A stretch of DNA of 64,000 nt from Candidatus Lloydbacteria bacterium RIFCSPHIGHO2_02_FULL_50_18 (GTDB lineage Bacteria > Patescibacteriota > Minisyncoccia > Phycocordibacterales > UBA6899): contig MHLM01000004.1 in NCBI GenBank assembly GCA_001821395.1, positions 64,001 to 128,000 of the forward strand. Reading direction: 5' to 3'. The notes below the pieces were generated by a model that did not search any database, was not told the DNA's origin, and was given only the letters and a program-made list of their open reading frames with translations. The translations under genes and the position numbers were made by a program. Positions 26,513 to 29,980 of the stretch are shown here, one piece after another (position 1 is the first letter of the stretch; every line of letters starts with the position of its first letter).

Positions 26513-26881
26513 TTATTCGCATGGAGCGAAATTGCAATCTGGAGGCAGGCGCAATGAGAATGAGCCATCCGGGCAACTTCTCGCGTCTGCGGTACACGTG
26601 ACGACGAGTCCTTCCGCCGTCGATGCCTTGGGCACGTCGGACACTCCGTTTGTTATCGCAAACGTAATCTGCTCATTGGGGCATCGATCAAATGTACAAT
26701 CGGGACCGGTGCGACCCACCGCGGATCCGTCAGGGCATATCTTTGCTTCAGCAGTGCAGGAACCAGCAGTTACACCAGTGCTGGGATACCATGGTAGTAT
26801 GAACGCGAAGATGAGGATGATGAGCGATACAATGATACCGACCTTACCGAGCACGATGACCTTCTTTTTCTCTAACTTCAT
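26513..26881 (-). CDS. Small membrane-anchored protein with two CxxxxxxCPDGS...PDCxFxxC repeats
   Basis: Internal duplication CTAEAKICPDGSAVGRTGPDCTFDRCP and CTADARSCPDGSFSLRLPPDCNFAPCE. Lies directly upstream of the sortase gene on the same strand. Confidence 0.45.
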   Translation of the reverse strand: MKLEKKKVIVLGKVGIIVSLIILIFAFILPWYPSTGVTAGSCTAEAKICPDGSAVGRTGPDCTFDRCPNEQITFAITNGVSDVPKASTAEGLVVTCTADARSCPDGSFSLRLPPDCNFAPCE

Positions 26882-26951
26882 TAGTATAGTATATGCCTCA
26901 CAAGCGAAAAATGCATCTTGAGAAGGTGCACCGCTTGCTCCATGAGAACCC

Positions 26952-27455
26952 ATGCGAGATGATATTTATTCCGCGTTAATGATCCTGCGACCCATGATAA
27001 TAAAAGAAAAATGGCGAGAGCATCCTTTGTATAAGCAGGGGAAAATAGAATTAGTGCCGACCGATTGGGTCTGGCAATACTTCGGGCGCGACGTCTCACC
27101 GGAGGCGGATCTGATGGACGGTACGCTCGTCTCCATGGATACGCTATGGGAAAATATTTGCGAAGAGGGATTGTATGATCCGCTCATCATGCGCATCGGG
27201 CTAGGGAATAAGAAGTTTCGTCTCGAGTCCGGTAATCACCGCATCCAAGTCTTTCATGAGCACGGAGTAGCGATGGTGCCCCTCACGGTTGAAGTGAGAG
27301 AAGCGTGCGGACCGGAGCTCCCCGATGTGATGACTGACGCGACGCACAATTTTGATGCTCCGGACGGATTTCTTATTTCAGTGATCACGGATGCACACAT
27401 GAAGCCAAGTGAAGTTTTTCAAGATATTAAAGATATGCAGAACAATAACTCATGA
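26952..27455 (+). CDS. ParB/Srx-fold nuclease-like domain protein
   Basis: LESGNHRIQV...GVAMVPLTV matches the DGHHR core of the ParB N-terminal domain. Confidence 0.5.
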   Translation: MRDDIYSALMILRPMIIKEKWREHPLYKQGKIELVPTDWVWQYFGRDVSPEADLMDGTLVSMDTLWENICEEGLYDPLIMRIGLGNKKFRLESGNHRIQVFHEHGVAMVPLTVEVREACGPELPDVMTDATHNFDAPDGFLISVITDAHMKPSEVFQDIKDMQNNNS

Positions 27456-27856
27456 ATATCGTTGAACGAGTAAAAAAACTGGATCTTCCCGCGGGGGAAT
27501 ATGTCGTCGTTGGGAGTGGTATTCTTGATGCCCTTCACATACGAGAGGCACAAGATATTGATATTGCAGTAGTGCCGGCATTGCTGGCACGACTCCGTGC
27601 TAAAGGAGGATGGGAAGAGGAGGAGCGCTATGGAAAAGTATTTCTTAAAAAGGGTGATATTGAGATCATTCCTCAGCTTTCTTGGGAAGATTATCCTACA
27701 ACCACTGAAGAAGCTATTGATTCAGCAATGATCATTGAGGGAGTGCCGTTCATGAACTTAGCGGAGTTGTGCAAATTTAAAAAGGCCCTTGGGCGAGAAA
27801 AGGACCAAACGGATATTGCGTTGATCAATGCATATAAAGAAGCGCACGCTTTGTAG
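27452..27856 (+). CDS. Minimal nucleotidyltransferase (MNT/Pol-beta-like)
   Basis: GSG-x12-DIDIAV motif. Overlaps the upstream gene by 4 nt (ATGA). Confidence 0.55.
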   Translation: MNIVERVKKLDLPAGEYVVVGSGILDALHIREAQDIDIAVVPALLARLRAKGGWEEEERYGKVFLKKGDIEIIPQLSWEDYPTTTEEAIDSAMIIEGVPFMNLAELCKFKKALGREKDQTDIALINAYKEAHAL

Positions 27857-27912: not shown

Positions 27913-28518
27913 ATGGTGAATATTTTTATTGCGCGGCACGGGCAAGACGTCGACAATCGTAATGGTATCCTGAATGGTCATCGCGACCTGCCGCTCACTG
28001 AAAAGGGAATCGCAGAAGCGCACCAGGTTGCTGATCTCATCAGTGCGGCAAAGTTGCATTTTGATGCAGTCTACACCTCGCCGCTTTTGCGTGCGTCTGA
28101 AACGGCAGCGATCATCACAACGGTACAGGGAGGCCCAATGCCCATAAAAGAAGACCTGCTCATCGAGCGCGACTTTGGCATTATGACCGGGAAAAAGGTC
28201 GCCGATATCTCCATGCTCTGTGCATCGGACATACTCATCACGGATATGGCCACGTACTTTCTCGAGCCGTTCGGTGCGGAAACATTTCCCGATCTCTTAA
28301 AGCGATCACGGCTTCTGCTCGACAAGCTCGAAAAGCTTCATCCGTCCGGGAATATTCTCCTCGTTGCTCATGGTGATATTGGAAAGATGCTTTACGCGGA
28401 ATATTATCATTTGCATTGGGAAGAAGTGCTCATGCAGTTTCATTTCGGCAATTGCGATCTACTCCTTCTCTCCGCAGATTCGCCGGCGAGCGCATCTCAC
28501 GTTTTTCAGATCCGTTAA
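27913..28518 (+). CDS. Histidine phosphatase (phosphoglycerate mutase-like) family protein
   Basis: RHGQ catalytic motif and SPLLRASETA. Confidence 0.75.
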   Translation: MVNIFIARHGQDVDNRNGILNGHRDLPLTEKGIAEAHQVADLISAAKLHFDAVYTSPLLRASETAAIITTVQGGPMPIKEDLLIERDFGIMTGKKVADISMLCASDILITDMATYFLEPFGAETFPDLLKRSRLLLDKLEKLHPSGNILLVAHGDIGKMLYAEYYHLHWEEVLMQFHFGNCDLLLLSADSPASASHVFQIR

Positions 28519-29644: not shown

Positions 29645-29980
29645 ATGGCAGCAAAAAAAGTAGCAGCAAAAAAGGCAGTCGCTAAAAAAGCAGTAGCAAA
29701 AAAGGCGGTCGCAAAGAAACCTGCAGCAAAAAAGGTCAATTCCGCATTTATGAAACCAATGACGATCAGCGCCGAGCTTGCTCTTGTCGTCGGAAAAGGT
29801 CCGATGCCTCGTTCAGAGGTCGTGAAGAAGCTCTGGGTTTATATCAAGAAGCATGATCTTCAGGATGCAAAAAATAAGCGCAATATCAACGGCGATGCGG
29901 CATTGGTTGCGGTATTCGGCGGAAAGAAGACCGTCAACATGTTTGAAATGACGAAGCTTGTGTCGAAACATCTTTCATAA
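29645..29980 (+). CDS. SWIB/MDM2-domain protein with an N-terminal Lys/Ala-rich histone-H1-like tail
   Basis: AAKKAVAKK repeats followed by ...ELALVVGKGPMPRSEVVKKLWVYIKKHDLQDAKNKRNINGD...MFEMTKLVSKHL. Confidence 0.75.
   Translation: MAAKKVAAKKAVAKKAVAKKAVAKKPAAKKVNSAFMKPMTISAELALVVGKGPMPRSEVVKKLWVYIKKHDLQDAKNKRNINGDAALVAVFGGKKTVNMFEMTKLVSKHLS

What the first reader, a model, noticed from the sequence alone, without database searches (positions are those of the whole stretch)
26952..27856. Overlapping ParB/Srx-fold nuclease-like gene and minimal nucleotidyltransferase gene: candidate toxin-antitoxin or defence pair
Two small genes overlap by ATGA, so they are translationally coupled. The first has the GNHR core of the ParB N-terminal or sulfiredoxin fold. 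The second has the GSG...DIDIA signature of MNT/Pol-beta nucleotidyltransferases, which usually pair with HEPN toxins or act as AbiEii-like toxins. A pairing of ParB-like with MNT is not a combination I recognise as a described system.
Basis: partly seen in the sequence, partly recalled or inferred. Interest (0 to 1): 0.55.

Follow-up and report, generated by a model that had tools for sequence, protein, structure and literature searches.

The report
Two unrelated small enzyme genes, adjacent
Two small genes in a Candidatus Lloydbacteria genome do overlap by four bases and do have the predicted folds (ParB/sulfiredoxin-like and MenT/AbiEii-like nucleotidyltransferase), but they sit together only in very close relatives, so they are neighbours by descent and not a toxin-antitoxin or defence system.

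Summary
ORF A (26952..27455; real start most likely 26994, 153 aa) and ORF B (27452..27856, 134 aa) overlap by ATGA. A carries an invariant G-N-H-R motif. B carries GSG...DIDIA.

The pair is adjacent only in relatives at least 87% identical. In a relative with A at 78% and B at 67%, a histidine-kinase gene sits between them. None of 22 more distant A loci has an adjacent B, and none of 85 B loci has any A-like gene, even with profile HMMs.

B's TGA lies inside its own conserved start (ATG AAY). The same 4-nt overlap occurs with NUDIX, alpha/beta-hydrolase and ASCH genes elsewhere. B's only recurrent association is with NUDIX, by fusion and adjacency.

There are no PADLOC hits, no viral relatives and no GC anomaly, and the neighbours are housekeeping genes. 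Both genes are uncharacterised members of known superfamilies. Interest is low.

The parts
26994..27455 (+). Gene A: 153-aa single-domain ParB/Srx (ParB-CTPase) fold protein. The longest ORF starts at 26952, but M15 at 26994 is the likely start.
27144..27194 (+). ParB Box I-like segment of A (LWENICEEGLYDPLIMR; residues 65-81 of the long ORF).
   Evidence: W66, G73, P77 and R81 are invariant and L65 and L74 are at least 90% conserved. The segment lies inside the stretch matched by the ParB_N profile, residues 62-113. The equivalence to ParB Box I is my inference from the pattern.
27231..27242 (+). GxxR P-motif (Box II) of A: G94-N95-H96-R97, within FRLESGNHRIQ.
   Evidence: Read directly from the sequence. 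G94, N95 and H96 are invariant and R97 is at least 90% conserved in the family. GxxR is the NTP-phosphate-binding P motif of the fold (PMC12704722).
27452..27455 (+). ATGA overlap: the start codon of B overlaps the stop codon of A.
   Evidence: The TGA is formed by B's own conserved start ATG AAY/ACN/AGY, present in 50 of 79 B loci.
27452..27856 (+). Gene B: 134-aa minimal Pol-beta-fold nucleotidyltransferase of the TM1012 / MenT / LnuA structural group.
27512..27562 (+). NTase motif I of B: G21-S22-G23 ... D35-I-D37 (GSGILDALHIREAQDID).
   Evidence: D35 is invariant and D37 and R31 are at least 90% conserved across 60 broad-family members.
27662..27664 (+). E71 of B, the probable third metal-binding carboxylate (motif II, h[DE]h).
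   Evidence: The column is D or E in nearly all of 38 homologues and the majority residue is E in the broad family. The catalytic role is inferred from the general Pol-beta NTase pattern.
27779..27814 (+). C-terminal helix motif of B: K110 ... R115-x-K117-D118 ... D121 (KALGREKDQTD).
   Evidence: K110 is invariant and K117, D118 and D121 are at least 90% conserved across the broad family. The resemblance to motif III of AbiEii/MenT-type NTases is an inference from pattern and fold.
27913..28518 (+). Histidine phosphatase gene 56 nt downstream of B. It probably belongs to the same transcription unit and to the same lineage-specific syntenic block.
   Evidence: PF00300 at E 5e-36. B-HisPhos order is kept in L103, L104 and L101. 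No terminator-like site lies between B and this gene.

Best explanation
A and B are two independent, separately inherited genes of Patescibacteria (Paceibacteria-type CPR bacteria). They lie next to each other in this Candidatus Lloydbacteria lineage by local gene-order history, not because they form a two-component system.

A is a stand-alone, acidic (pI 4.8) ParB-CTPase/sulfiredoxin-fold protein with an intact Box I-like segment and GxxR P-motif. It has no DNA-binding domain. It most likely binds an NTP and acts as a small nucleotide-dependent switch or phosphotransferase, not as a partition protein or a nuclease.

B is a stand-alone, acidic (pI 4.9) minimal nucleotidyltransferase with a complete catalytic set: GSG, D35/D37, E71, and K110/K117/D118/D121. 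It most likely transfers an NMP to a small phosphorylated or nucleotide-derived substrate, or to an RNA 3' end, as a housekeeping activity. I consider it non-toxic because it nearly always occurs without any conserved partner gene.

The 4-nt overlap arose because B's conserved start (ATG AAY) contains a TGA. A's variable C-terminal tail runs on until it reaches that TGA. The overlap probably does couple translation of B to A in this lineage.

Shown: the folds, the motifs, the lack of pair conservation, and the variety of B's partners. Inferred: the biochemical activities, the non-toxicity, and the translational coupling.
For: Pair conservation:
- Adjacency with the same overlap is found only in identical contigs (L109-L112) and in relatives at A 88-93% / B 87% (L103, L104).
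- In L101 (A 78%, B 67%) a PAS histidine-kinase gene separates the two. HisPhos and SWIB are still downstream, so this is the same syntenic region with the pair uncoupled.
- Of 20 GTDB-representative A loci, only L013 has a B-like gene, at 37% identity and 2.7 kb away, with several unrelated ORFs (NADAR-like, ferritin-like/DUF2202-like, SDR-like, named by eye) between.
- A relatives at 77% (L105/L106) and B relatives at 70% (L107/L108) lack the partner.
- 0 of 80 metagenomic B loci have A, and 63 of them have room upstream for it.
- Profile HMMs run with --max find no A-like ORF in 85 B loci (best E 0.7), and find B-like only in L013 among 22 A loci.

Origin of the overlap:
- 50 of 79 B genes start with ATGA. 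Upstream genes ending on that TGA include NUDIX (L102, L060, L055), alpha/beta hydrolase (L025, L071) and ASCH (L056).
- A's tail after the conserved KPSEVF is 11 aa in the window lineage, against roughly 4-7 aa in most homologues.

B's real associations:
- Fusions to NUDIX (P0253, P0265, P0273), NUDIX-B-pyrophosphatase (P0254), shikimate kinase, glyoxalase and cupin. None is a fusion to ParB.
- A Nudix box lies within 1 kb in 10 of 82 loci, 2.5 times the density found farther away in the same loci.

Context:
- Neighbours are a YkuD transpeptidase, a C39 peptidase, a sortase, HisPhos, SWIB, an MGMT-like gene and an AlkD-like gene.
- There is no GC anomaly, no PADLOC hit and no relative in viral contigs.

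Folds.
Against: - B's closest characterised structural relatives are growth-inhibiting tRNA nucleotidyltransferase toxins (MenT1, MenT3, MenT4), so toxicity cannot be excluded from sequence alone.
- This is the only 4-nt overlap among 38 same-strand pairs in the window, and it is kept in the 87-93% relatives.
- A and a B-like gene lie within 3 kb in two lineages that are otherwise distant (L101, L013). That is slightly more than a random placement would give. Shared flanking genes (a sortase/PG-binding gene in L013, SWIB in L101 and L002) point to residual synteny as the cause.
- Genome-wide co-occurrence (phyletic profiles) could not be tested.
Confidence: 0.8

Rival explanations
1. Lineage-specific metabolic operon. 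In Lloydbacteria, A (NTP-binding/phosphotransferase), B (nucleotidyltransferase) and the downstream histidine phosphatase act on the same nucleotide-derived small molecule. They are co-transcribed for that reason, although the genes are dispersed in other lineages.
For: All three genes are on the same strand with a 4-nt overlap and then a 56-nt gap, and no terminator-like site lies between them. The A-B-HisPhos order is retained in L103 and L104. Elsewhere B associates with other phosphate- and nucleotide-handling enzymes: NUDIX, pyrophosphatase, P-loop kinases, and B-NUDIX-HisPhos in L094.
Against: A shows no association with B, NUDIX or HisPhos in 22 other loci. In L101 a kinase gene is inserted between A and B, and HisPhos looks frameshifted. 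Retention of the order in relatives at least 87% identical is what descent alone would give.
Confidence: 0.13
2. A new type of toxin-antitoxin or abortive-infection pair. B is a MenT/AbiEii-like toxin that nucleotidylates tRNA 3' ends. A is a ParB/Srx-fold antitoxin that binds B, or triggers its phosphorylation at the GSG serine. The pair was assembled recently in the Lloydbacteria lineage.
Against: The pair is not conserved beyond relatives at least 87% identical and is split in L101. B occurs as a solo gene in about 80 loci with no conserved neighbour, which is incompatible with an unneutralised toxin. Both families are highly conserved in sequence (55-75% identity across candidate phyla), unlike fast-evolving, patchy TA modules. 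There are no PADLOC hits, no PF08843 (AbiEii) hit in any of 38 members, no mobile-element or defence context, no GC anomaly and no viral relatives. B is acidic and lacks the basic residues that flank the phosphoacceptor in MenT3 (R76, K79), as read from the sequence.
Confidence: 0.05
3. HEPN-MNT-type module. B is an MNT antitoxin whose HEPN toxin partner is nearby.
For: B has the GSx(n)DxD signature and a size (134 aa) typical of MNT antitoxins.
Against: Neither flanking gene is HEPN: A is ParB/Srx fold and the downstream gene is a histidine phosphatase. PF01909 and PF18765 match only 2-3 of 38 members, at E around 0.03. No conserved partner is found in 82 loci. Structurally B groups with TM1012/MenT/LnuA, which carry the C-terminal K...KD..D helices.
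Confidence: 0.01

Closest known systems
TM1012 (PDB 2ewr), putative nucleotidyltransferase from Thermotoga maritima
   Different: Identity is only 15%. There is no detectable sequence match in the PDB profile search. TM1012 has no known function, so the match gives a fold group and not an activity.
MenT / AbiEii (DUF1814) nucleotidyltransferase toxins (MenT1 8an4, MenT3/TglT 6j7n, MenT4 6y56)
   Different: B is about half the size of AbiEii/MenT3 and shorter than MenT1 (195 aa). No member hits PF08843. There is no cognate AbiEi/MenA-type gene and no other conserved partner. B is acidic. It is found as a solo gene next to housekeeping genes.
Small-molecule nucleotidyltransferases LnuA (4wh5) and ANT(2'')-Ia (4xje)
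   Different: Identity is 15-18%. No evidence was obtained for an antibiotic-binding pocket. B's most frequent associations are with NUDIX and pyrophosphatase, not with resistance genes.
ParB N-terminal CTPase domain (ParB/Noc/KorB/PadC) and sulfiredoxin / free serine kinase / SbnI
   Different: A has no HTH or dimerisation domain, so it is not a partition or nucleoid-occlusion protein. Its motif is GNHR, not ParB's GERR or sulfiredoxin's GCHR. It carries family-specific conserved elements: an N-terminal W/H-rich segment, ECGPH, and MTDATHNF. Structural scores are modest (TM about 0.3). A published survey of the fold (PMC12704722) reports that proteins annotated as single-domain are mostly long (>=300 aa) in bacteria, with very short (~100 aa) ones seen in phages and some archaea.

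Membership tests
ParB/Srx (ParB-CTPase fold) superfamily, for protein A | Significant match to the ParB_N profile (PF02195) | tested here: inconclusive
   The window protein scores 13.5 bits (E 0.077), below the gathering score of 26.3. However, 35 of 39 family members match at E<=1, best 3e-5. About a dozen homologues carry a precomputed PF02195 hit. NCBI names one homologue 'ParB N-terminal domain-containing protein'.
ParB/Srx (ParB-CTPase fold) superfamily, for protein A | The three-dimensional fold | tested here: met
ParB/Srx (ParB-CTPase fold) superfamily, for protein A | Conserved GxxR P-motif (Box II) for NTP phosphate binding | tested here: met
   G94-N95-H96-R97: the first three are invariant and R97 is at least 90% conserved. 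Motif definition from PMC12704722. NTP binding itself was not tested.
Canonical ParB partition/Noc proteins, for protein A | HTH DNA-binding domain, C-terminal dimerisation domain and a parA partner | tested here: not met
   A is 153 aa with only the N-domain fold plus short extensions. Its net charge is -12. No parA-like neighbour is present.
AbiE / MenAT (DUF1814) toxin-antitoxin systems, for protein B and the pair | Toxin matches the AbiEii/DUF1814 profile (PF08843) with four signature motifs | tested here: not met
AbiE / MenAT (DUF1814) toxin-antitoxin systems, for protein B and the pair | A conserved cognate antitoxin gene adjacent to the toxin gene | tested here: not met
   No conserved neighbour family is found around B in 82 loci. 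A is absent from all 85 B loci outside the close lineage.
AbiE / MenAT (DUF1814) toxin-antitoxin systems, for protein B and the pair | Toxicity of the NTase and rescue by the partner | not testable with these tools
   This needs expression assays.
HEPN-MNT modules, for protein B | MNT profile match (PF01909 / PF18765) and an adjacent HEPN (Rx4-6H) gene | tested here: not met
   PF01909 matches 2 of 38 members and PF18765 matches 3 of 38, with best E 0.03-0.04. The flanking genes are a ParB/Srx-fold gene and a histidine phosphatase gene.
Pol-beta-type nucleotidyltransferase fold, for protein B | hG[GS]x9-13Dh[DE]h motif plus a third carboxylate, on the NTase alpha/beta core | tested here: met
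Known anti-phage defence systems (PADLOC-DB) | Profile match of either protein to a defence-system component | tested here: not met
   A has no hit. B has only a spurious Type II methyltransferase hit at E 0.012.

The most novel reading that the evidence does not exclude
In the Lloydbacteria lineage the two genes have been recruited into a new kind of NTase regulatory pair. The single-domain ParB/Srx-fold protein A would use a bound NTP to control the MenT-like nucleotidyltransferase B, by binding it or by driving phosphorylation of its GSG serine. This would be a toxin-antitoxin-like module with a ParB-fold antitoxin, which has not been described.
Probability: 0.04. Interest if true: 0.6.

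Novelty: new member of a known kind. Interest (0 to 1): 0.15.

Why it matters
As a candidate new defence or toxin-antitoxin system it does not hold up, so it should not be carried forward as one.

Two things of modest value remain. First, B belongs to a large family with no Pfam model: 2170 clusters at 50% identity. Its members are minimal, MenT-like nucleotidyltransferases that live as solo genes and are repeatedly fused to NUDIX and pyrophosphatase domains. This suggests that a non-toxic, metabolic branch of the MenT/AbiEii structural group exists. Second, A is a bacterial example of a short single-domain ParB-CTPase-fold protein. A recent survey of the fold observed very short (~100 aa) single-domain proteins in phages and some archaea, whereas bacterial proteins annotated as single-domain were mostly long (>=300 aa).

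The case also carries a practical caution. A 4-nt ATGA overlap next to a toxin-like fold is not evidence of a TA module when the TGA is built into the downstream gene's own conserved start.

Tried and rejected
1. NHL-repeat reading of A. A PDB profile search gave an NHL-repeat protein (6d69) at E 1e-4. That score is the sum of six weak matches of the short 'nHRiQvf' strand motif, each with an individual E of 25 or more. A has a single copy of the motif, and its model is ParB/Srx and not a propeller blade. Rejected.
2. Sequence search of B against the PDB found nothing. Only fold comparison placed it.
3. Both families were searched for in viral contigs. No relatives were found, despite a PHROG hit of B to an unannotated family (phrog_12854, 1e-8).
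4. I looked for a 'Rosetta stone' fusion of B with a ParB domain among the 20 longest B-family representatives. There was none.
5. I looked for any conserved neighbour of A in 20 loci. There was none.
6. The profile search with the A alignment returned only the same tight family (274 clusters), and the 120 hits listed included no distant annotated relatives.
7. Foldseek against AFDB50 was unavailable.
8. P0099 and P0193 share a contig length of 4330 and looked like a possible third co-occurrence. The B contig L102 carries no A gene.
9. The promoter/terminator scan was uninformative: counts were at or below the shuffle expectation.

Full report
**What is there.** On the + strand the window has ORF A at 26952..27455 and ORF B at 27452..27856. 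They share the four bases ATGA. Homologues of A begin at the position of M15 (consensus MxIKExWK). Gene callers on identical contigs call a 153-aa product. The real gene is therefore most likely 26994..27455.

B is 100% identical to a protein of Candidatus Lloydbacteria bacterium RIFCSPHIGHO2_01_FULL, so the window comes from a Patescibacteria/CPR genome.

A is transcribed divergently from a small membrane-protein gene (26513..26953, - strand). B is followed after 56 nt by a histidine phosphatase gene (27913..28518; PF00300 at E 5e-36). No terminator-like site lies between them.

**Are the motifs real?** Yes. Among 39 A homologues, G94, N95 and H96 are invariant and R97 is at least 90% conserved, within FRLE[AS]GNHRIQ. 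A ParB Box I-like segment (LWxNIxxEGLxxPLIMR) lies upstream of it. Among 38 B homologues, G21-S22-G23 and D35-I-D37 are at least 90% conserved. Across 60 members of a much broader set, D35 and K110 are invariant, and R31, D37, F100, K117, D118 and D121 are at least 90% conserved.

**What the proteins are.**

*Protein A.*
- The window protein is below threshold for PF02195 (13.5 bits against 26.3), but 35 of 39 family members match that model (best 3e-5).
- The AlphaFold2 model is confident (pLDDT 87.9).
- All 50 best Foldseek PDB hits are too, although none reaches E<=1e-3.
- An NHL-repeat hit in the PDB sequence search is the sum of weak matches to a short strand motif, and I rejected it.
- A has no further domain and is strongly acidic (pI 4.8, net charge -12). 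It is not a partition protein, and nothing indicates nuclease activity.
- The GxxR motif is the NTP-phosphate-binding P motif of this fold. The fold is known to bind ATP, CTP or GTP in different families (PMC12704722).

*Protein B.*
- It has no Pfam hit. The family gives only scattered weak hits to DUF6036, Polbeta and NTP_transf_2.
- Its model is very confident (pLDDT 95.8).

- Identical contigs (L109-L112) and two relatives at A 88-93% / B 87% (L103, L104) keep A-B-HisPhos with the same overlap.
- The next relative is L101 (A 78%, B 67%). It has a PAS histidine-kinase gene of about 1.5 kb between A and B, while HisPhos and SWIB are still downstream. This is the same chromosomal region with the pair uncoupled.
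- Of 20 loci from GTDB representative genomes that carry A (51-77% identity), none has an adjacent B. Only L013 has a B-like gene, at 37% identity and 2.7 kb away, with several unrelated genes between.
- A relatives at 77% (L105/L106) and B relatives at 70% (L107/L108) lack the partner.
- Of 80 metagenomic loci carrying B (54-70% identity; 63 with room upstream), none has A.
- Divergent partners could escape tblastn, so I also searched all ORFs of these loci with profile HMMs at maximum sensitivity. No A-like ORF appeared in 85 B loci (best E 0.7). B-like ORFs appeared only in L013 among 22 A loci.
- Neither family has any conserved neighbour.

**The overlap.** In this window it is the only 4-nt overlap among 38 same-strand pairs by my rough gene call, so it deserved an explanation. 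B's conserved N-terminus (M-N/T/S-I) makes the start ATGA in 50 of 79 loci. Any upstream gene in the right frame then stops there at the latest. Elsewhere the gene ending on that TGA is a NUDIX hydrolase (L102, L060, L055), an alpha/beta hydrolase (L025, L071) or an ASCH protein (L056). A's tail after the conserved KPSEVF is not conserved, and is longest in the window lineage (11 aa against about 4-7). The overlap is therefore explained by juxtaposition plus read-on of a free tail. It probably still couples translation here, but that is an inference.

**What B really associates with.** A profile search of 1.84 billion representatives finds 2170 clusters (1011 at E<=1e-10). Most are solo proteins of 130-145 aa. 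Among the longer ones, the fusion partners are NUDIX (three cases), NUDIX plus inorganic pyrophosphatase, shikimate kinase, glyoxalase/bleomycin-resistance, cupin and TFIIB. None is ParB. A Nudix box lies within 1 kb of B in 10 of 82 loci, 2.5 times the density found farther out in the same loci. Other repeated neighbours are P-loop kinases, alpha/beta hydrolases and GIY-YIG proteins. This is a housekeeping, nucleotide- and phosphate-handling context, not a conflict context.

**Context in the window.** The neighbours are a YkuD L,D-transpeptidase, a C39-like peptidase, a sortase, the histidine phosphatase, a SWIB protein, an MGMT-type DNA-binding protein and an AlkD-type alkylation repair enzyme. 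GC content across the pair (0.47-0.50) is like that of the flanks. PADLOC gives nothing, and neither family occurs in viral contigs.

**Mechanism I commit to.** A and B are independent genes (confidence 0.8).
- A is a single-domain NTP-binding ParB-CTPase/Srx-fold protein, acting as a small nucleotide-dependent switch or phosphotransferase.
- B is a stand-alone minimal nucleotidyltransferase with a full catalytic set. It most likely nucleotidylates a small phosphorylated or nucleotide-derived substrate, or an RNA end, in a non-toxic, housekeeping role. NUDIX and pyrophosphatase are its occasional functional companions.

Rivals:
- A lineage-specific A-B-HisPhos metabolic operon (0.13).
- A recently assembled MenT-like TA pair with a ParB-fold antitoxin (0.05).
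- A HEPN-MNT module (0.01).

The TA reading keeps a small probability for three reasons. MenT toxins are B's nearest characterised structures. MenA antitoxins are diverse and act by inducing toxin phosphorylation (PMC11375011). A's fold includes kinases. Against it, a toxin that lives without a partner in about 80 loci is hard to reconcile with that reading.

**Comparison with the known.** B works like, and folds like, the TM1012/MenT/LnuA group of minimal NTases. It fails the membership tests for AbiE/MenAT (no PF08843 match, no cognate antitoxin) and for HEPN-MNT (no HEPN partner, no MNT profile match). A is a member of the ParB/Srx superfamily at fold and motif level, but it is not a canonical ParB.

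**Novelty and score.** Both genes are uncharacterised members of known superfamilies. The proposed ParB-MNT 'system' is not a real unit. Interest is 0.15.

Noticed in passing
P0253, P0254, P0265, P0273; L102 3233..4134, L060, L055, L094 6001..6812: B-family nucleotidyltransferases are repeatedly fused to, or 4-nt-overlapped with, NUDIX hydrolases. One protein (P0254) is NUDIX-B-inorganic pyrophosphatase. This may mark a nucleotidylation/hydrolysis module in CPR bacteria.
   Followed up: partly
P0259: A 3540-aa protein contains three stretches matching the B profile (best at residues 677-805) and has no Pfam hit at E<=1e-3. Its origin and architecture are unknown.
   Followed up: no
L101 5461..6061: In the relative where A and B are split by a kinase gene, the histidine phosphatase downstream of B aligns in two segments in different frames. 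It may be a pseudogene or an assembly error.
   Followed up: no
window 29645..29980 (+): This small protein has a lysine/alanine-rich histone-H1/HC2-like N-terminus (AAKK repeats) fused to a SWIB/MDM2 domain. It is conserved near A in L101 and L002.
   Followed up: partly
window 26513..26953 (-): This 146-aa predicted membrane protein has no Pfam hit. It carries two copies of a Cys-rich motif (CPDGS...PDC.F..C), seen by eye in the translation.
   Followed up: no
window 27219..27251 (A residues 90-100): A's RLESGNHRIQVF segment mimics the NHL-repeat consensus strongly enough to give a misleading PDB sequence hit (6d69, E 1e-4). This is a trap for sequence-only annotation.
   Followed up: yes
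P0366: A 312-aa protein joins TFIIB repeats (an archaeal-type transcription factor) to a C-terminal B-family domain. This suggests the family also occurs in archaea, or that two genes were merged by a gene-calling error.
   Followed up: no
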